From positions 480,001-544,000 of the forward strand of contig CM000208.1 in assembly GCA_000002445.1 (NCBI GenBank): 64,000 nucleotides of DNA. Reading direction: 5' to 3'. The position numbers were made by a program, and so were the translations under genes. Shown here piece after piece: positions 43,459 through 50,883 of the stretch. Within the stretch, counting starts at the first letter, position 1, and every line of letters begins with the position of its first letter. A model generated the notes under the pieces. It was not told the DNA's origin, did no database searches, and saw only the letters and a program-made list of their open reading frames with translations. The stretch comes from Trypanosoma brucei (lineage: Eukaryota).

Positions 43459-43923
43459 GCGTAGGGGCATATATGTGGGTACACCTCCGCATGTGTGAAA
43501 ATTTCTTCAGTTACATGTTTCTTGATAGCTATTTATTTTCCTTCCGTTTTCGACGCATTTGTTTCTTCACTGATATGTGAGCGGTGCTAGTGACAGCCCC
43601 TCCCTTCCTCCCTCCCCTGCAGTCCCTTACAGGGTGATAGTGATCCCTGTAGGAGGAAATGCTGGTGGCGCACGCGCCCCACTTGCCTACATGTATATGA
43701 TTAACGTTACATAAATCTCCCTCTTGTTGCCGTGTATGGTGCAATACATCTTGGGAAGGAAGTGAAACCATTGCTGCTGCTTAACCGCACTGCGGTGTAG
43801 TGATATGTCTGTGCTACATGAAGTTGTGATTGGAACAGACGATGCTTGCCGTGACGGCGCGTCGGGCAACGATGTTAGTGGGTTGTTACAGTCGACATTG
43901 GTGCCTACCATATGTGAGAGTGG

Positions 43924-43988
43924 TGACAACAAATAGTTTTTGTTTTGTTTTATTTTTTTACAAATTCTTTTTTTTTGTTTTTTGTAGG
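43924..43988 (+). promoter_or_regulatory. Polypyrimidine tract + AG, putative trans-splice acceptor region for the actin-like gene
   Basis: ttttgttttgttttattttttacaaattcttttttttttgttttttgtag lies immediately 5' of ATG 43989. This is the architecture kinetoplastids use for SL trans-splicing. Confidence 0.55.
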
Positions 43989-45518
43989 ATGACTGCTGGA
44001 TATCCGGTTCTTGTAGTTGATAATGGTGGCTATATGCTAAAGGCGCTCTACATTACTAGTGACGGTAAGTCCTCTTTTTTGCGTGGTAAAATTGCCGTAA
44101 TACCTAATTGTGTTGGAGCTGCTTCATATGTCGGTCGTGGAATTGTCGGTGAGCAGCTTTTCAAGTTACCGCACTTTCATGGCTTTATGGTTCGTCGTCC
44201 TGTTGATCGTGGTTTTATTGTGGATGCGGGACTTCAAAGCTACATTTGGGAGTACCTTCTTCAACACTTGGCTGTAGCCGATGAAAGTGAAGTGGAGCTT
44301 GTTATGACTGTCCCGTTTGGCGCTCCAAAGCAGGTGGGTGAACTTCTTCACTATTTGGTTGCACAGCGTTTCAGGTTTCGGTCAGTAACATTTGTGAGTT
44401 CGTCATTTCTAACGTTAGTGTCTTCTGTTTCACGCGATTGGCTGTATGGAAAGGCACCGGGTAATGGTAAAAGCAACAAAAAGGTGCGTGAAAAGTCAAA
44501 TTTCGGTTCTGACGGCGTGGGCTCTGAGAGTGTGACCGGGTGTGGGATGGTCGTTGACTTTGGTTTCTCGTCGACAACAGTTGTTCCGTACGTTAATTTC
44601 ATTCCATTGCAGGATTCTATTGTGCGAATTGACGTTGGTGGGAAGCTCTTGTCAAACAGGCTAAAGGAGCTCATTTCATTTACTCAGGTTAACGTGACGG
44701 AAGATGGTTGGTTAGTAAATCACATTATGGAGCAGGCCTGTTATGTGGCTCTGGATCCACTCGTGTCCTTGCGAAAGGCTGAATACGCAAAGCGGTTTGA
44801 TAAGGGGAACGGTGCTTTTGCAGGGTTGCGGTACTACTTGCCTACTGTTCCACCCCTTATGCCCCTTGGTTGTCGTGAGGAGCAGCTGACTCAAATCATT
44901 GGCAAAGACGTTGTGTTGCAGGAGAAAAATTCTTTACAGCATATTGTTTTCCGTCACGAGGCCTTTCTTATCCCGGAGCTTATCTTTAATCCTGTGGATG
45001 TGGGCATTTGCCAGATGGGTGTCGTCGAAGCCATAGTTCATGGGACCTGCTGCAGAGGTTCGCTACAGAACATGCGCACGTTGCACGGTGCAATGATGCG
45101 ACGCATCATTGCGTTTGGTGGTATTACCAAGTTTAAAAATCTTCCTGAGCGACTTTCGACAGAGCTCCGAAAGCATCTGAAGGAGGAGGGAGCATCGAGA
45201 GTGAGTGTCCCACCTGTAAAAGGTTCTGCCCCTCTTCAGGAATTCGTTCAATGGTCGCGCATTGGAAGGGTACGTATCGATCTTCAGTATAATGGCGTTG
45301 GTTATACACCGAGTGACTGTGAACTTCAACCCCTTTTCGGTGCTCTTGCACTTATCACGTGCCCCGTGCTGGAACCTCAGTTGAAATTGGTGCAAAGCCG
45401 GAGTCGTGTGGAGCTCCTGCCGGGAAGCACAGCAAAGGGAAGCCAAAACAGACAACAGGCATCCGCGGGCCCAAGGACTCTTAGTGCGGTTCTCTCGGCG
45501 CTTCAAAATTTACTGTAA
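43989..45518 (+). CDS. Actin-like / actin-related protein
   Basis: The ORF track starts at 43830, but the preceding codons translate a poly-T tract. ATG 43989 directly follows a long polypyrimidine tract plus AG (43924-43987). The N-terminus VLVVDNGGYMLKA matches the actin phosphate-1 loop (DNGSG-type). The C-terminal IIAFGGITKFKNLPERLSTELRKH resembles the actin GGT..PG..R motif. Confidence 0.6.
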   Translation: MTAGYPVLVVDNGGYMLKALYITSDGKSSFLRGKIAVIPNCVGAASYVGRGIVGEQLFKLPHFHGFMVRRPVDRGFIVDAGLQSYIWEYLLQHLAVADESEVELVMTVPFGAPKQVGELLHYLVAQRFRFRSVTFVSSSFLTLVSSVSRDWLYGKAPGNGKSNKKVREKSNFGSDGVGSESVTGCGMVVDFGFSSTTVVPYVNFIPLQDSIVRIDVGGKLLSNRLKELISFTQVNVTEDGWLVNHIMEQACYVALDPLVSLRKAEYAKRFDKGNGAFAGLRYYLPTVPPLMPLGCREEQLTQIIGKDVVLQEKNSLQHIVFRHEAFLIPELIFNPVDVGICQMGVVEAIVHGTCCRGSLQNMRTLHGAMMRRIIAFGGITKFKNLPERLSTELRKHLKEEGASRVSVPPVKGSAPLQEFVQWSRIGRVRIDLQYNGVGYTPSDCELQPLFGALALITCPVLEPQLKLVQSRSRVELLPGSTAKGSQNRQQASAGPRTLSAVLSALQNLL

Positions 45519-45639
45519 CTTTCAGCGGCGAATGGCGTTACATCTGTGATATTGCACCCACACATTGTTTATGCTGCTGCTTTGCGCTGAACACTTTAAG
45601 GCAACGTATGAGGTCTTCATTAGGTGTGACGGGGATCTG

Positions 45640-45720
45640 TTGTCGTTACTGTCCTTATGTGATGTTGTTGCTTCTCTTAATTCCTTTCTTTCCCCCTTTT
45701 CTGCTTGCACCGGTGCAATA
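45640..45720 (+). promoter_or_regulatory. Polypyrimidine tract upstream of hexokinase copy 1 (duplicated at 48686-48766 upstream of copy 2)
   Basis: ttgttgcttctcttaattcctttctttccccctttt ctgcttgcacc is present in both duplication units, about 170-250 nt upstream of each ATG. Confidence 0.45.
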
Positions 45721-45888
45721 CTGCCGTGTGGATCGATACGCCATAAGAAAGCAATACAAACACAAATAAGTTATATAAAAAACTCTATTTATTACTAAAG
45801 CCAAAACCCCGAGACACATATCATTTCCAGTATAAAGGAAAAAGATATCAGCGTAAGTTTATCACCTCGATATTGGAACGTCCGAGTA

Positions 45889-47304
45889 ATGTCTAGACGC
45901 CTAAACAATATCCTCGAACACATCTCGATCCAGGGAAATGATGGTGAGACTGTGCGTGCCGTTAAGCGTGATGTTGCAATGGCAGCGCTGACCAACCAAT
46001 TCACAATGAGTGTCGAGTCTATGCGACAGATCATGACATACCTCCTGTACGAGATGGTGGAGGGTCTTGAGGGTCGTGAAAGCACCGTCCGCATGTTACC
46101 ATCTTATGTATACAAGGCGGACCCTAAGCGTGCTACTGGCGTCTTCTACGCACTTGACCTCGGTGGTACCAACTTCCGTGTGCTGCGCGTTGCATGCAAG
46201 GAGGGTGCCGTGGTGGATTCCTCTACTTCTGCATTCAAGATTCCCAAATATGCCCTTGAGGGTAACGCCACCGATCTGTTTGGCTTCATTGCATCCAATG
46301 TGAAGAAAACCATGGAAACTCGTGCACCTGAGGACCTCAATCGCACAGTTCCTCTTGGGTTTACCTTCAGTTTCCCCGTGGAGCAGACGAAGGTTAACCG
46401 TGGTGTGCTTATCCGGTGGACGAAGGGCTTCAGCACGAAAGGCGTTCAAGGAAATGATGTGATTGCCCTTCTTCAGGCTGCTTTTGGGCGAGTGAGCTTG
46501 AAGGTGAATGTTGTGGCGTTGTGCAACGACACTGTTGGAACATTAATTTCGCATTACTTTAAGGACCCTGAGGTACAGGTTGGTGTGATTATCGGCACTG
46601 GTTCCAATGCGTGCTACTTTGAGACGGCGTCTGCTGTGACGAAGGACCCTGCCGTTGCTGCTCGTGGGTCAGCACTTACTCCCATCAATATGGAAAGCGG
46701 CAACTTTGACTCCAAGTACCGGTTTGTCCTCCCTACGACGAAGTTCGACTTGGATATTGACGATGCGTCGTTGAACAAAGGTCAACAGGCGCTGGAGAAG
46801 ATGATATCCGGCATGTACCTCGGCGAAATCGCCCGCCGCGTTATTGTGCACCTGTCGTCTATTAACTGCCTTCCTGCGGCACTGCAGACTGCTTTGGGCA
46901 ACCGGGGGTCGTTTGAGTCCCGATTTGCCGGGATGATCAGTGCTGACCGTATGCCCGGACTTCAGTTCACTCGCAGCACGATCCAGAAGGTGTGTGGTGT
47001 TGACGTGCAGTCAATTGAAGACCTTCGCATCATTCGCGATGTGTGCCGCCTTGTCCGTGGGAGGGCTGCGCAACTCTCTGCTTCCTTCTGCTGCGCTCCA
47101 CTGGTTAAGACTCAAACACAGGGCCGTGCAACTATTGCAATTGACGGCTCCGTGTTTGAGAAGATTCCGTCATTCCGCCGCGTCTTGCAGGACAACATCA
47201 ACCGTATCCTTGGCCCTGAGTGCGATGTCAGGGCCGTTCTCGCAAAGGATGGCAGTGGAATTGGTGCTGCATTTATTTCCGCAATGGTGGTGAACGACAA
47301 GTAA
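45889..47304 (+). CDS. HK: Hexokinase, tandem copy 1
   Basis: 471 aa. Hexokinase motifs ALDLGGTNFRVLRV, LGFTFSFPVEQT and IGTGSNACYFE. The N-terminal MSRRLNNILEHI fits a PTS2 (R-L-x5-H-I) glycosomal signal. The C-terminal tail is ...AKDGSGIGAAFISAMVVNDK. Confidence 0.95.
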   Translation: MSRRLNNILEHISIQGNDGETVRAVKRDVAMAALTNQFTMSVESMRQIMTYLLYEMVEGLEGRESTVRMLPSYVYKADPKRATGVFYALDLGGTNFRVLRVACKEGAVVDSSTSAFKIPKYALEGNATDLFGFIASNVKKTMETRAPEDLNRTVPLGFTFSFPVEQTKVNRGVLIRWTKGFSTKGVQGNDVIALLQAAFGRVSLKVNVVALCNDTVGTLISHYFKDPEVQVGVIIGTGSNACYFETASAVTKDPAVAARGSALTPINMESGNFDSKYRFVLPTTKFDLDIDDASLNKGQQALEKMISGMYLGEIARRVIVHLSSINCLPAALQTALGNRGSFESRFAGMISADRMPGLQFTRSTIQKVCGVDVQSIEDLRIIRDVCRLVRGRAAQLSASFCCAPLVKTQTQGRATIAIDGSVFEKIPSFRRVLQDNINRILGPECDVRAVLAKDGSGIGAAFISAMVVNDK

Positions 47305-48173
47305 GTGAGAAAACCATGCTTTTCAAAATTACTTTCACTGTCTGTTCATATTTTGTGTTCTTTTTGTTTTTGAAATGGGCGTTTTTTGTCGCTCTCGGTG
47401 GCAGTGCTCACATGCTATTCGAGTTACCACTCCGTCTTATCCCCAAATCCTTCCGTCAACGGTACCACAACAATTGATGATCCAAAAAGATCAAAAAGAA
47501 AATATTTTCTTTATCGCAGACTAGCGAAAACATAGGCGATAAGAGAGGAAAAACGTTTTTCTCTTGTGGCCTCCCCCCTTACGAAGGTGAGAACCTCTGC
47601 ACTTTGTGTGCTTAACCTCCTTTTTGTGTAATGGTCTGTTTTCTATACTAATAGGTAGTTGTAATATAAGTTACTGCAATTACTTTATCCTCATTTTCCT
47701 CTGGTTACCCTCTCTTTTTTGTTGTTGCTGTTTCTGTGATAAAGCAACTCGGACAAAGAAGGAATAAATGCAGCTAATATATTTTGAATGGGGACGAAAA
47801 GAGAAATTGTTTTACCTATCCTTTCGTGTTTTCTTTTTGTTTATGCTTCATTATTGTTGTCGTCGCTTTCGGTGATAATATTTTTACTGTAAGGTAGTAA
47901 CTAAACATTTATTGTAGTATTACCTTTTTTACTGCGATGAGGCTTGCGCTGTTCTTGTTGTTGTGTTTGCTTCCATGATTTATTATGGACGGAAATGGGA
48001 TCGGAAGGAGAGGGGGAGACAAAAGGTGTGGCGACTATTGCTAAAAAACAAAAGCAAAAAGAACTAAAAAAAAGTGTGAACATTAAGCAGCTGTAAAGTA
48101 AATATTTTTCTGGGTTTTTTTTTCAGTTCTTCTTTGTTTATTTTTATTTTTCGGTGCCACAGTTATGTGGGAC

Positions 48174-48184
48174 TAGGGTTAGGG
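48174..48184. repeat. Interstitial telomere-like repeat (TAGGGTTAGGG)
   Basis: The context is tatgtgggactagggttagggaa, in the spacer between the hexokinase copies. The flanking ttatg-GGG context resembles the 5023 site. Confidence 0.7.
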
Positions 48185-48600
48185 AATTAATAATAATGTA
48201 AAATGGGGGAATTTACAAATATGGGAGGAGAGGAATCATATAAAGTAAGGTTACCTCATTCATTTAAGGTCACTACTCCATATTTTCCCTTTTCACCAAC
48301 TCTTGTGATATTTTTAGGGAGGACGAAAGGAAAAAAGGAAAAAAATGAAAAGCAATGTGAAATAGGAATGGAGATGAATGAAGGAAAAGTAACAACTGGA
48401 AGAATTGAGAGAGAAATAATGAAAAGGTGTGGAGGATGTGTCACCGGAGGCGGTGAAAAGAGGTATAACGAAAAAAAAACGAACAAGGGAAAGAAATAAT
48501 TATGGGGAAGTGAACTGATACAAAACGTAAGGGGCAAAACGTGAAAAGGATAATACAAGGTTTGGCAGGAGACTCTAAAAGCAAACAAAGGGTATATATA

Positions 48601-50350
48601 CACCCACACATTGTTTATGCTGCTGCTTTGCGCTGAACACTTTAAGGCAACGTATGAGGTCTTCATTAGGTGTGACGGGGATCTGTTGTCGTTACTGTCC
48701 TTGTGTGATGTTGTTGCTTCTCTTAATTCCTTTCTTTCCCCCCTTTCTGCTTGCACCGGTGCAATACTGCCGTGTGGATCGATACGCCATAAGAAAGCAA
48801 TACAAACACAAATAAGTTATATAAAAAACTCTATTTATTACTAAAGCCAAAACCCCGAGACACATATCATTTCCAGTATAAAGGAAAAAGATATCAGCGT
48901 AAGTTTATCACCTCGATATTGGAACGTCCGAGTAATGTCTAGACGCCTAAACAATATCCTCGAACACATCTCGATCCAGGGAAATGATGGTGAGACTGTG
49001 CGTGCCGTTAAGCGTGATGTTGCAATGGCAGCGCTGACCAACCAATTCACAATGAGTGTGGAGTCTATGCGACAGATCATGACATACCTCCTGTACGAGA
49101 TGGTGGAGGGTCTTGAGGGTCGTGAAAGCACCGTCCGCATGTTACCATCTTATGTATACAAGGCGGACCCTAAGCGTGCTACTGGCGTCTTCTACGCACT
49201 TGACCTCGGTGGTACCAACTTCCGTGTGCTGCGCGTTGCATGCAAGGAGGGTGCCGTGGTGGATTCCTCTACTTCTGCATTCAAGATTCCCAAATATGCC
49301 CTTGAGGGTAACGCCACCGATCTGTTTGACTTCATTGCATCCAATGTGAAGAAAACCATGGAAACTCGTGCACCTGAGGACCTCAATCGCACAGTTCCTC
49401 TTGGGTTTACCTTCAGTTTCCCCGTGGAGCAGACGAAGGTTAACCGTGGTGTGCTTATCCGGTGGACGAAGGGCTTCAGCACGAAAGGCGTTCAAGGAAA
49501 TGATGTGATTGCCCTTCTTCAGGCTGCTTTTGGGCGAGTGAGCTTGAAGGTGAATGTTGTGGCGTTGTGCAACGACACTGTTGCCACGATGATTTCGCAT
49601 TACTTTAAGGACCCTGAGGTACAGGTTGGTGTGATTATCGGCACTGGTTCCAATGCGTGCTACTTTGAGACGGCGTCTGCTGTGACGAAGGACCCTGCCG
49701 TTGCTGCTCGTGGGTCAGCACTTACTCCCATCAGTATGGAAAGCGGCAACTTTGACTCCAAGTACCGGTTTGTCCTCCCTACGACGAAGTTCGACTTGGA
49801 TATTGACGATGCGTCGTTGAACAAAGGTCAACAGGCGCTGGAGAAGATGATATCCGGCATGTACCTCGGCGAAATCGCCCGCCGCGTTATTGTGCACCTG
49901 TCGTCTATTAACTGCCTTCCTGCGGCACTGCAGACTGCTTTGGGCAACCGGGGGTCGTTTGAGTCCCGATTTGCCGGGATGATCAGTGCTGACCGTATGC
50001 CCGGACTTCAGTTCACTCGCAGCACGATCCAGAAGGTGTGTGGTGTTGACGTGCAGTCAATTGAAGACCTTCGCATCATTCGCGATGTGTGCCGCCTTGT
50101 CCGTGGGAGGGCTGCGCAACTCTCTGCTTCCTTCTGCTGCGCTCCACTGGTTAAGACTCAAACACAGGGCCGTGCAACTATTGCAATTGACGGCTCCGTG
50201 TTTGAGAAGATTCCGTCATTCCGCCGCGTCTTGCAGGACAACATCAACCGTATCCTTGGCCCTGAGTGCGATGTCAGGGCCGTTCTCGCAAAGGGTGGCA
50301 GTGGTGTCGGTGCGGCACTTATCTCCGCTATCGTTGCTGACGGGAAGTGA
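48601..50350 (+). repeat. Tandem duplication unit, copy 2 (hexokinase 5' flank + CDS)
   Basis: See copy 1. The spacer between the copies (47305-48600) is unique sequence. Confidence 0.9.
48935..50350 (+). CDS. HK: Hexokinase, tandem copy 2
   Basis: 471 aa, nearly identical to copy 1. Internal differences: G131D, TVGTL to TVATM, INM to ISM. The C-terminal tail differs: ...AKGGSGVGAALISAIVADGK. Same PTS2-like N-terminus. Confidence 0.95.
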   Translation: MSRRLNNILEHISIQGNDGETVRAVKRDVAMAALTNQFTMSVESMRQIMTYLLYEMVEGLEGRESTVRMLPSYVYKADPKRATGVFYALDLGGTNFRVLRVACKEGAVVDSSTSAFKIPKYALEGNATDLFDFIASNVKKTMETRAPEDLNRTVPLGFTFSFPVEQTKVNRGVLIRWTKGFSTKGVQGNDVIALLQAAFGRVSLKVNVVALCNDTVATMISHYFKDPEVQVGVIIGTGSNACYFETASAVTKDPAVAARGSALTPISMESGNFDSKYRFVLPTTKFDLDIDDASLNKGQQALEKMISGMYLGEIARRVIVHLSSINCLPAALQTALGNRGSFESRFAGMISADRMPGLQFTRSTIQKVCGVDVQSIEDLRIIRDVCRLVRGRAAQLSASFCCAPLVKTQTQGRATIAIDGSVFEKIPSFRRVLQDNINRILGPECDVRAVLAKGGSGVGAALISAIVADGK

Positions 50351-50629
50351 AGGTGAGTGTCCGCGAACGTAGTGTAATTTTCTGTTATTTTTTAAAAATT
50401 TGTTAGTTAGCGTGAAATTCTTCTGAAAAGCAGCAGTTGACAAAAAACTTTCTGTCTGTCTGTATTGATTTTTTTATTTTTCGTTATTATGCGTTTTTTT
50501 GTGATGACACTGCTATGCTATTTCGGCAATATAGCGTCGGTTTTGCAACTTAAACGGACTTACCGTGGCCTCAGCGACTTTTGCATTTCGTTTTTTCTAG
50601 TATTTTTTTCTGATGTACTTTTGTTTCTT

Positions 50630-50634
<5 letters not shown>

Positions 50635-50667
<33 letters not shown>
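50635..50667. repeat. (TA)n microsatellite, about 16 units
   Basis: Direct read: tatatatata... in the spacer downstream of hexokinase copy 2. Confidence 0.9.
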
Positions 50668-50671
<4 letters not shown>

Positions 50672-50883
50672 TGCTTTATTGTTATAACTGAGCGGGGGAG
50701 CCGAATACACATATGTATGTATGCGTCTGTTTTCGTCGATGCAAAAAGTTTGCGGTATTCTGCTTCCCTCTGTTTTCCGTATGAGAAGGTATTTACCCCG
50801 TTTTTTGCATTTTCTTCCGGTGAACAAGGTAGCGGCTTTTCGGTGTTTCTAGGATACGTGAAAAATAGGAATCCAAGCGGTTA

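What the first reader, a model, noticed from the sequence alone, without database searches (positions are those of the whole stretch)
45555..50350. Tandem hexokinase duplication homogenised over 5' flank and CDS, with divergence confined to the C-terminal tail and 3' UTR
The two units are near-identical from about 334 nt upstream of the ATG through about codon 450. There are only a few internal substitutions (G131D, G/A-T/L to A-M, N/S). Identity then drops sharply, so the final 20 aa differ at about 8 positions (DGSGIGAAFISAMVVNDK versus GGSGVGAALISAIVADGK) and the 3' UTRs are unrelated. That pattern argues for ongoing gene conversion with a fixed 3' boundary. The divergent tails and UTRs could carry copy-specific regulation or function. 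Both copies keep a PTS2-like N-terminus (RLNNILEHI).
Basis: seen in the sequence. Interest (0 to 1): 0.5.

Follow-up and report, generated by a model that had tools for sequence, protein, structure and literature searches.

The report
Trypanosoma brucei hexokinase 1/2 tandem pair

Summary
Two 471-codon hexokinase genes (45889-47304 and 48935-50350, + strand) lie 3046 nt apart. They match from a sharp edge 334 nt before the ATG (45555/48601) through codon 453, with 2 mismatches in the flank and 8 in 1359 coding nt. The last 54 coding nt then carry 15 mismatches and 7 amino-acid changes, and the sequence after the stop codons is unrelated.

The proteins are exactly T. brucei brucei TREU927 XP_822456.1 and XP_822457.1, i.e. 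TbHK1 and TbHK2 on chromosome 10.

The gene-conversion reading holds. Silent divergence is 0.011 in the body and about 0.96 in the tail. The two copies within a strain are closer (dS 0.008-0.011) than the same copy between TREU927 and T. b. gambiense (0.030-0.036). Internal copy-specific sites are shuffled among strains. The same tandem pair, with unrelated 3' UTRs, sits at the syntenic locus in T. congolense, T. theileri, Leptomonas and Leishmania.

The HK1 tail is the ancestral type; the HK2 tail is specific to T. brucei.

Published work already covers the 98% identity, the functional 18-residue tail, the unique 3' UTRs, reciprocal expression of the two mRNAs, and PTS2 targeting. The finding is correct but already known, so interest is low.

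The parts
45555..45888 (+). Shared 5' flank, copy 1 (334 nt). It begins 36 nt after the stop of the upstream actin-like ORF and contains a polypyrimidine tract (about 45662-45705) followed by AG dinucleotides, the usual trans-splicing signal.
   Evidence: 2 mismatches in 334 nt against 48601-48934; sequence read. Its role as splice-acceptor region and 5' UTR is inferred from general trypanosome biology.
45889..47304 (+). TbHK1 coding sequence (Tb927.10.2010; XP_822456.1), 471 aa.
   Evidence: ORF; Pfam PF00349 1.5e-61, PF03727 2.3e-65; 100% identical to T. b. brucei TREU927 hexokinase on a 4,054,025-nt contig.
45898..45924 (+). PTS2-type glycosomal targeting motif RLNNILEHI (codons 4-12) of HK1. 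The identical motif in HK2 is at 48944-48970.
   Evidence: translation. The pattern R-[LV]-x5-H-[IV] is kept in all trypanosomatid orthologues. PMC3195984 Table 1 lists PTS2 for TbHK1 and TbHK2.
47248..47301 (+). HK1 C-terminal tail DGSGIGAAFISAMVVNDK (codons 454-471), the ancestral type.
   Evidence: Its protein sequence is identical to the T. vivax tail and one or two residues from T. congolense, T. cruzi marinkellei, T. grayi and T. theileri.
47305..48600 (+). HK1-specific 3' UTR and intergenic sequence (1296 nt), unrelated to the HK2 3' region.
48601..48934 (+). Shared 5' flank, copy 2.
48935..50350 (+). TbHK2 coding sequence (Tb927.10.2020; XP_822457.1), 471 aa.
50294..50347 (+). HK2 C-terminal tail GGSGVGAALISAIVADGK (codons 454-471), the derived type seen only in T. 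brucei. It starts inside the universally conserved (E/K)DGSGxGAA hexokinase motif.
   Evidence: Position 454 is polymorphic: G in TREU927 and T. equiperdum SCU67614.1, D in T. b. gambiense and T. b. equiperdum GCA_003543875.1.
50351..50883 (+). HK2-specific 3' UTR and intergenic sequence (533 nt) up to the PPR gene, including an (AT)17 microsatellite at 50634-50667.

Best explanation
The region is the TbHK1-TbHK2 tandem pair of Trypanosoma brucei brucei TREU927, chromosome 10. It lies inside a + strand polycistronic unit, between an actin-like gene and a PPR gene.

The tandem arrangement is old. The same pair, at the same syntenic place and with unrelated 3' UTRs, is found in T. congolense, T. 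theileri, Leptomonas and Leishmania.

In every lineage, recurrent non-reciprocal recombination (gene conversion) between the two copies keeps the coding sequence and a stretch of 5' flank nearly identical. In T. brucei the tract runs from -334 to about codon 453-456. Conversion has continued since the T. brucei subspecies split.

The tract stops where homology ends, at the unrelated 3' UTRs. Conversion becomes rare near such an edge, so differences pile up there and push the edge inwards. Only in T. brucei has this reached 51 nt into the coding sequence. That freed the last 17 codons of the downstream copy to diverge into the HK2 tail, while HK1 kept the ancestral tail.

According to the literature, the tail controls HK2's activity and the two 3' UTRs give the mRNAs different developmental expression. 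Selection therefore probably now helps to hold the boundary.

What is shown and what is inferred:
- Shown here: gene identity, the distribution of differences, concerted evolution, the syntenic pairs, and which tail is ancestral.
- Inferred: the edge-erosion mechanism and the role of selection.
For: Identity: 100% match to XP_822456.1 and XP_822457.1; Pfam hexokinase domains.

Sharp block edges and clustered differences: (p = 2.7e-17).

Old tail, young body: tail pS 0.54 (dS 0.96) against body dS 0.011. Tail third-position differences between HK1 and HK2 are 9 of 18, against 10-12 of 18 between TbHK1 and the T. congolense, T. vivax, T. theileri and T. cruzi marinkellei copies.

Concerted evolution:
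- At 7 sites both TREU927 copies differ from both copies of T. b. gambiense and T. b. equiperdum.
- Paralogue body dS of 0.011 and 0.008 is below orthologue dS of 0.030 and 0.036.
- Markers 132, 217-219, 267 and 454 are mosaic across strains.

Syntenic tandem pairs with homogenised coding sequence and unrelated 3' UTRs: Leptomonas and L. martiniquensis, T. theileri, T. congolense.

Edge gradient in other species:
- T. congolense: all 4 paralogue differences in the last 107 of 384 coding nt.
- T. theileri: differences only in the last 5 codons.
- Leptomonas: only the last few residues of the tail differ.

Literature: 98% identity and the tail, 11 aa differences, reciprocal expression through 3' UTR-specific qRT-PCR, concerted evolution as a general property of T. 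brucei tandem arrays.
Against: - The tail is only 18 codons (about 14 silent sites), so its age estimate has wide error.
- No 3' UTR homology could be detected between species. Orthology of 'upstream' and 'downstream' copies across genera therefore rests on synteny alone, and independent duplications in some lineages are not excluded.
- T. cruzi marinkellei shows a single copy in its assembly. This could be a real loss or a collapsed repeat.
- Both T. congolense copies have the ancestral tail. The HK2 tail could therefore be younger than the brucei/congolense split and fast-evolving, rather than older.
- Conversion was not separated from unequal crossing-over, or from allelic recombination among already mosaic alleles.
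- The primary paper on the tail (Morris et al. 2006) could not be read here.
Confidence: 0.88

Rival explanations
1. A very recent duplication copied only the 5' flank and the coding sequence. Rapid adaptive (or relaxed) protein evolution of the HK2 tail followed, with no ongoing conversion.
For: - The body is 99.4% identical.
- The HK2 tail is found only in T. brucei.
- The tail varies between strains at 4 of 54 nt.
Against: - Half of the tail's third-codon positions differ (pS 0.54), while body dS is 0.011. Selection on the protein does not produce silent changes.
- Strain-specific variants are shared by both copies, and paralogues are closer than orthologues. That requires exchange after the strains split.
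- The tandem pair already exists in T. congolense and in more distant genera.
Confidence: 0.04
2. Assembly artefact: a collapsed or chimeric repeat in the reference creates false identity or false tails.
For: - Tandem near-identical repeats are often misassembled.
- The T. theileri assembly has an N-gap at this locus, and the T. b. equiperdum and T. congolense assemblies each have an apparent frameshift in an HK copy.
Against: - The same two-gene structure, the same 5' edge and the same two tail types occur in TREU927, T. b. gambiense DAL972 and T. b. equiperdum GCA_003543875.1. The HK2-type tail also occurs in a T. equiperdum protein record.
- Both genes have been handled separately in experiments: 3' UTR-specific RNAi, qRT-PCR and recombinant proteins.
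Confidence: 0.01
3. The boundary is purely mechanical (loss of homology at the unrelated 3' UTRs). The HK2 tail is drifting neutrally, without a function of its own.
For: - An edge gradient is seen in several species.
- The HK2 tail is polymorphic at 4 of 54 nt between subspecies, including the conserved Asp454.
- Tail dN/dS of about 0.22 gives no sign of positive selection.
Against: - The literature reports that the 18-residue tail controls HK2 activity, that both genes are essential in bloodstream forms, and that HK2 has extra-glycosomal/flagellar localisation.
- Six of the seven tail replacements are fixed in all HK2 sequences seen.
Confidence: 0.2
4. The tandem pairs in different genera arose by independent duplications at the same locus, not from one ancient duplication kept similar by conversion.
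For: - No cross-species similarity of the copy-specific 3' UTRs.
- The length of the shared 5' flank differs: 334 nt in T. brucei against 42-51 nt in Leishmania and Leptomonas.
- T. cruzi marinkellei has a single copy in its assembly.
Against: - It needs at least four or five independent duplications of the same gene at the same place, each ending close to the stop codon and each acquiring unrelated 3' UTRs.
- The saturated silent divergence of the T. brucei tails points to an old split.
- This rival does not affect the demonstration of conversion within T. brucei.
Confidence: 0.15

Closest known systems
TbHK1 / TbHK2 of Trypanosoma brucei (Tb927.10.2010 / Tb927.10.2020). Sources: Morris et al. 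2006 Eukaryot Cell 5:2014; Chambers et al. 2008 J Biol Chem 283:14963; Joice et al. 2012 Int J Parasitol 42:401. All three are cited in PMC3195984, PMC3862409 and PMC4106842.
   Same: It is this locus. The proteins match exactly. The pair is tandem, 98% identical with 11 aa differences, most of them in the 18-residue C-terminal tail. The 3' UTRs are unique, and both copies carry PTS2.
   Different: Nothing differs. What this analysis adds is explicit evidence for concerted evolution from strain and species comparison, and the polarity of the tails (HK1 ancestral, HK2 derived). I did not find either stated in the papers I could read.
Concerted evolution in T. brucei tandem gene arrays (Jackson 2007, PMC1855330; T. 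b. gambiense genome paper, PMC2854126). Examples include arrays whose terminal copy has a distinct C-terminus and unrelated UTRs, and the PGK and hexose-transporter arrays.
   Same: Homogenised coding sequences, mosaic copies that differ between subspecies, and divergent copies marked by remodelled UTRs that limit conversion.
   Different: Those surveys covered arrays of 4 or more copies (Jackson 2007) or more than 3 copies (gambiense genome paper). Hexokinase is not mentioned in either. Here the array is a pair, and the escape from conversion covers only 17 codons.
Tandem hexokinase pairs of Leishmania, Leptomonas, T. congolense and T. theileri (syntenic loci).
   Same: Same neighbours (actin-like gene upstream, PPR gene downstream), homogenised coding sequence and unrelated 3' UTRs.
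   Different: In those species the identical tract reaches the last few codons or passes the stop. The two proteins are therefore identical (L. martiniquensis, T. congolense) or differ only in the last 1 to about 8 residues.

Membership tests
Hexokinase (EC 2.7.1.1; Pfam Hexokinase_1 PF00349 + Hexokinase_2 PF03727) | Both Pfam domains present above the gathering score, and full-length similarity to solved hexokinases. | tested here: met
   both ORFs score 208-221 bits against cut-offs of about 24. E = 6e-155 to human hexokinase-2 structures.
Hexokinase (EC 2.7.1.1; Pfam Hexokinase_1 PF00349 + Hexokinase_2 PF03727) | Conserved C-terminal (E/K)DGSGxGAA motif intact. | tested here: inconclusive
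   HK1 has the motif: DGSGIGAA aligns to DGSGKGAA of human HK2. TREU927 HK2 has GGSGVGAA, with the Asp lost. HK2 of T. b. gambiense keeps the Asp. Catalytic competence cannot be tested here. The literature reports recombinant HK2 alone as inactive.
TbHK1/TbHK2 locus of T. brucei | Exact protein identity to the annotated TREU927 genes and the same genomic neighbours. | tested here: met
   (XP_822456.1, XP_822457.1; 4.05 Mb contig). Searches show the same gene order in T. b. gambiense and T. b. equiperdum.
PTS2 peroxisomal/glycosomal targeting signal | N-terminal nonapeptide fitting (R/K)(L/V/I)x5(H/Q)(L/A), consensus from established knowledge. | tested here: inconclusive
   R4-L5-x5-H11-I12 is present in both copies and conserved in orthologues. 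The last position is I (or V) rather than L/A. Import itself cannot be tested here. PMC3195984 Table 1 lists PTS2 for both enzymes.
Concerted evolution by gene conversion | Paralogues within a genome are more alike than orthologues between genomes, and lineage-specific variants are shared by both copies. | tested here: met
   (7 such sites). (dS 0.011 and 0.008 against 0.030 and 0.036).
Concerted evolution by gene conversion | Abrupt discontinuity in divergence along the alignment, including at silent sites. | tested here: met
   (dS 0.011 against 0.96; p = 2.7e-17).
Concerted evolution by gene conversion | Mosaic distribution of copy-specific markers among strains (patchy tracts). | tested here: met
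   Markers at 132, 217-219, 267 and 454 occur in four different combinations among HK2 sequences of TREU927, T. b. gambiense DAL972, T. b. equiperdum GCA_003543875.1 and T. equiperdum SCU67614.1.
Concerted evolution by gene conversion | The duplication is older than the divergence seen in the homogenised part. | tested here: met
   Syntenic tandem pairs in T. congolense, T. theileri, Leptomonas and Leishmania. Independent duplications are not formally excluded.
Concerted evolution by gene conversion | Non-reciprocal transfer shown directly, as opposed to unequal crossing-over. | not testable with these tools
   This needs pedigrees or experimental crosses, or population long-read haplotypes.

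The most novel reading that the evidence does not exclude
The most novel reading not excluded has two parts.

1. Erosion of the 3' edge of a conversion tract, where it meets unrelated 3' UTRs, is a general route by which the ancient trypanosomatid hexokinase pair repeatedly acquires isoform-specific C-termini. T. brucei HK2 is the most advanced case.

2. The loss of the conserved Asp454 (DGSG to GGSG) is polymorphic among T. brucei strains. The catalytic silence or regulability reported for HK2 could therefore differ between strains and subspecies.
Probability: 0.3. Interest if true: 0.35.

Novelty: already known. Interest (0 to 1): 0.12.

Why it matters
Hexokinase catalyses the first step of glycolysis, the only ATP source of bloodstream T. 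brucei, and TbHK1 is a validated drug target.

The pair shows clearly how a tandem duplicate can stay almost identical through conversion yet gain a distinct function and regulation from the small part that escapes (17 codons plus the 3' UTR). All of this is established in the trypanosome literature.

The strain and species comparison made here adds only modest points:
- The HK1 tail is the ancestral type.
- Conversion has continued since the subspecies split.
- Asp454 of HK2 is polymorphic.

Tried and rejected
- I tried to read the primary papers: Morris et al. 2006 (PMC1694814), Joice et al. 2012 (PMC3710734) and Chambers et al. 2008 (PMC3258875). None is held. What they show is therefore taken from their titles and from citing papers.
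- I looked for hexokinase in Jackson 2007 and in the T. b. gambiense genome paper. It is not mentioned; the surveys covered arrays of 4 or more copies and more than 3 copies respectively.
- blastn (word size 7) of the T. brucei HK1 3' region, HK2 3' region and shared 5' flank against the T. congolense and T. vivax loci gave no hit. Orthology of copy-specific UTRs across species could not be shown.
- The first protein search listed no T. congolense entry and only a partial T. vivax one. A second search with the C-terminal 130 aa recovered C-terminal fragments from both. The T. vivax contig starts inside the gene, so its copy number is unknown.
- Rejected readings: recent duplication plus fast tail evolution (silent-site evidence) and assembly artefact (independent assemblies).
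- Antisense ORFs inside the repeat (for example 45795-46094 and 48841-49140, - strand) are simply duplicated with the block and have nothing to support them.
- No structure prediction or fold search was run, because the family assignment is unambiguous.


Full report
**What is in the sequence**

Two 471-codon ORFs lie on the + strand at 45889-47304 and 48935-50350. Both carry the two Pfam hexokinase domains at 208-221 bits and match solved hexokinases over their full length. They form the only direct repeat of 100 nt or more in the 64 kb window.

At a fixed offset of 3046 nt, identity rises from background (about 25%) to 100% exactly at 45555/48601, which is 334 nt before the ATG. It stays at 98-100% through 47248/50294 and drops to background immediately after the stop codons.

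The full list of differences:
- 5' flank: 2 nt.
- Codons 1-453: 8 nt (V42 silent, G132D, G217A, T218 silent, L219M, N267S).
- Codons 454-470: 15 nt (D454G, I458V, F462L, M466I, V468A, N469D, D470G, plus silent changes).
- Stop codons: TAA versus TGA.

Fifteen of the 23 coding differences fall in the last 54 of 1413 nt (Fisher p = 2.7e-17).

**What it is**

The two proteins are identical to XP_822456.1 and XP_822457.1, annotated as hexokinase of Trypanosoma brucei brucei TREU927 on a 4.05 Mb contig. These are TbHK1 (Tb927.10.2010) and TbHK2 (Tb927.10.2020).

All 20 ORFs of 250 aa or more in the window are on the + strand, as expected for a trypanosome polycistronic unit. The neighbours are an actin-like gene upstream and a PPR gene downstream. 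The shared 5' flank holds a polypyrimidine tract followed by AG dinucleotides. By general knowledge of trypanosome mRNA processing, this is the trans-splicing signal and 5' UTR (inference).

**Test of the gene-conversion reading**

1. Silent sites. By Nei-Gojobori, body dS is 0.011 (3.5 silent differences over 327 silent sites). The tail has pS 0.54 and dS 0.96, with dN 0.21. Tail third-codon positions differ at 9 of 18 between HK1 and HK2. Between TbHK1 and the T. congolense, T. vivax, T. theileri or T. cruzi marinkellei copies the figure is 10-12 of 18. The tails have therefore been separate for a time comparable to the divergence of trypanosome species, whereas the bodies look very young.

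2. Strain comparison. I fetched the same locus from T. b. gambiense DAL972 and T. b. equiperdum GCA_003543875.1 and aligned all six units.
   - At 7 coding sites (nt 222, 300, 567, 610, 645, 696, 936) both TREU927 copies carry one base and both copies of the other two strains carry another.
   - Orthologue dS between TREU927 and gambiense is 0.030 (HK1) and 0.036 (HK2). This is higher than paralogue body dS within either genome (0.011 and 0.008). That is concerted evolution after the subspecies separated.

3. Mosaics. The copy-specific markers are shuffled among strains.
   - G132 is unique to TREU927 HK1.
   - A217/M219 is present in HK2 of TREU927, gambiense and T. equiperdum SCU67614.1, but not in HK2 of T. 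b. equiperdum GCA_003543875.1.
   - S267 is absent from HK2 of SCU67614.1.
   - G454 is present only in HK2 of TREU927 and SCU67614.1.

4. Boundaries. The 5' edge is identical in the three assemblies. The 3' edge lies at codon 454 in TREU927 and at codon 457 in the other two. From codon 457 on, every HK2 has the HK2 tail.

**Age and polarity**

Orthologues from T. theileri, T. grayi, T. rangeli, T. cruzi marinkellei, T. conorhini, T. congolense and T. vivax all end in DGSG[ILV]GAAFISA[LM][VA]VNDK. The T. vivax tail is identical to TbHK1's. The HK1 tail is therefore ancestral and the HK2 tail derived.

The tandem pair is not special to T. brucei. At the syntenic locus:
- Leptomonas pyrrhocoris and Leishmania martiniquensis have two copies.
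- T. theileri has a second copy behind an assembly gap.
- T. congolense has an upstream partial copy and a downstream complete copy.

In each case the coding sequences are homogenised and the 3' UTRs are unrelated:
- Leishmania: identical from -42 to about 50 nt past the stop.
- Leptomonas: nearly identical from -51 to about nt 1399, with several scattered internal differences, so only the last few residues of the tail differ.
- T. theileri: the 62 codons visible in the second copy differ only in the last 5.
- T. congolense: protein tails identical, identity continues about 40 nt past the stop, and all 4 differences fall in the last 107 of 384 coding nt.

T. cruzi marinkellei shows one copy in its assembly.

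The simplest account is one old tandem duplication followed by lineage-by-lineage homogenisation. The conversion tract ends where the 3' UTRs lose homology, and there is a gradient of escape near that edge. T. brucei is the lineage where the edge has moved furthest into the coding sequence. Independent duplications are not excluded, because the UTRs are not alignable between species.

**How it most likely works**

- Shown: the two genes share the same 5' processing region, the same PTS2-type N-terminus and the same catalytic body. They differ in 4 internal residues, 7 tail residues and the whole 3' UTR.
- From the literature:
  - TbHK1 and TbHK2 are 98% identical, and both are essential in bloodstream forms by RNAi directed at their unique 3' UTRs (PMC3195984).
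  - Recombinant TbHK2 alone lacks activity, and an 18-residue C-terminal tail controls it (Morris et al. 2006, known here from its title and from citing papers).
  - Mixed hexamers have native-like kinetics (PMC3862409; PMC4106842).
  - HK2 is also found outside glycosomes, in the flagellum.
  - HK1 mRNA is 4-fold higher in early procyclic forms and HK2 mRNA 2-fold higher in late ones, measured with 3' UTR-specific primers (PMC4214818).
- Also seen here: the tail begins inside the universally conserved (E/K)DGSGxGAA motif, and TREU927 HK2 has lost its Asp.
- Inferred: conversion keeps HK2 able to co-assemble with HK1. The escaped tail and UTR supply the isoform-specific behaviour. Selection against overwriting the tail probably reinforces a boundary first set by loss of homology.

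**Comparison with what is known, and novelty**

This is the known TbHK1/TbHK2 locus. Its tandem arrangement, 98.3% identity with 11 aa differences (PMC12121924), functional tail, unique 3' UTRs and PTS2 are all published.

Concerted evolution with divergent terminal copies marked by remodelled UTRs is a described property of T. brucei tandem arrays (PMC1855330 and PMC2854126). Those surveys covered only arrays of 4 or more (or more than 3) copies and do not mention hexokinase.

The explicit strain and species evidence for conversion at this pair, the ancestral status of the HK1 tail and the polymorphism at residue 454 are modest additions, not a new kind of thing.

**Verdict**

The finding is already known, so interest is low.

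Noticed in passing
L001 about 9330 (T. b. equiperdum GCA_003543875.1, HK2 copy, codon 94): A 1-nt deletion relative to all other copies breaks the HK2 reading frame, and the record annotates only a 330-aa product (P0123). This could be a homopolymer error of a long-read assembly or a real pseudogene.
   Followed up: no
L008 1949-3363 (T. congolense IL3000): The downstream hexokinase is annotated as two ORFs (232 aa and 204 aa), with a frame change near 2629-2749. The contig ends inside the upstream copy, so the locus is incompletely assembled.
   Followed up: partly
window 45519-45555: The duplicated block starts only 36 nt after the stop codon of the upstream actin-like ORF (43830-45518). Most of that gene's 3' UTR and poly(A) region must therefore lie inside sequence repeated in front of HK2. 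The actin-like mRNA and the HK1 mRNA would then end next to the same downstream splice signal.
   Followed up: no
window 50634-50667: A perfect (AT)17 microsatellite in the HK2-specific 3' region, a likely length-polymorphic marker.
   Followed up: no
window 50294-50347 versus L002 10407-10460: The HK2 tail differs between TREU927 and T. b. gambiense at 4 of 54 nt (7%), against about 0.8% for coding regions genome-wide (PMC2854126). Two of the four make the gambiense tail more HK1-like (codons 454 and 458), which suggests short conversion patches or a shifting edge.
   Followed up: partly
P0002 (AYK27210.1, 'hexokinase 1 [Trypanosoma brucei brucei]', 462 aa): A deposited TbHK1 sequence, 93% identical, with several scrambled stretches between about residues 238 and 345 and one residue missing at the C-terminus. 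It looks like frameshifts or sequencing errors in a cloned gene.
   Followed up: no
L006 3170-4588 and 7001-8425 (Leptomonas pyrrhocoris): The two copies are identical for the first roughly 400 nt and again from about nt 1200 to 1399, but carry clustered differences between about nt 650 and 1200. This mosaic pattern suggests patchy conversion in that lineage too.
   Followed up: partly
window 1-64000: All 20 ORFs of 250 aa or more are on the + strand, so the window lies within a single polycistronic transcription unit.
   Followed up: no
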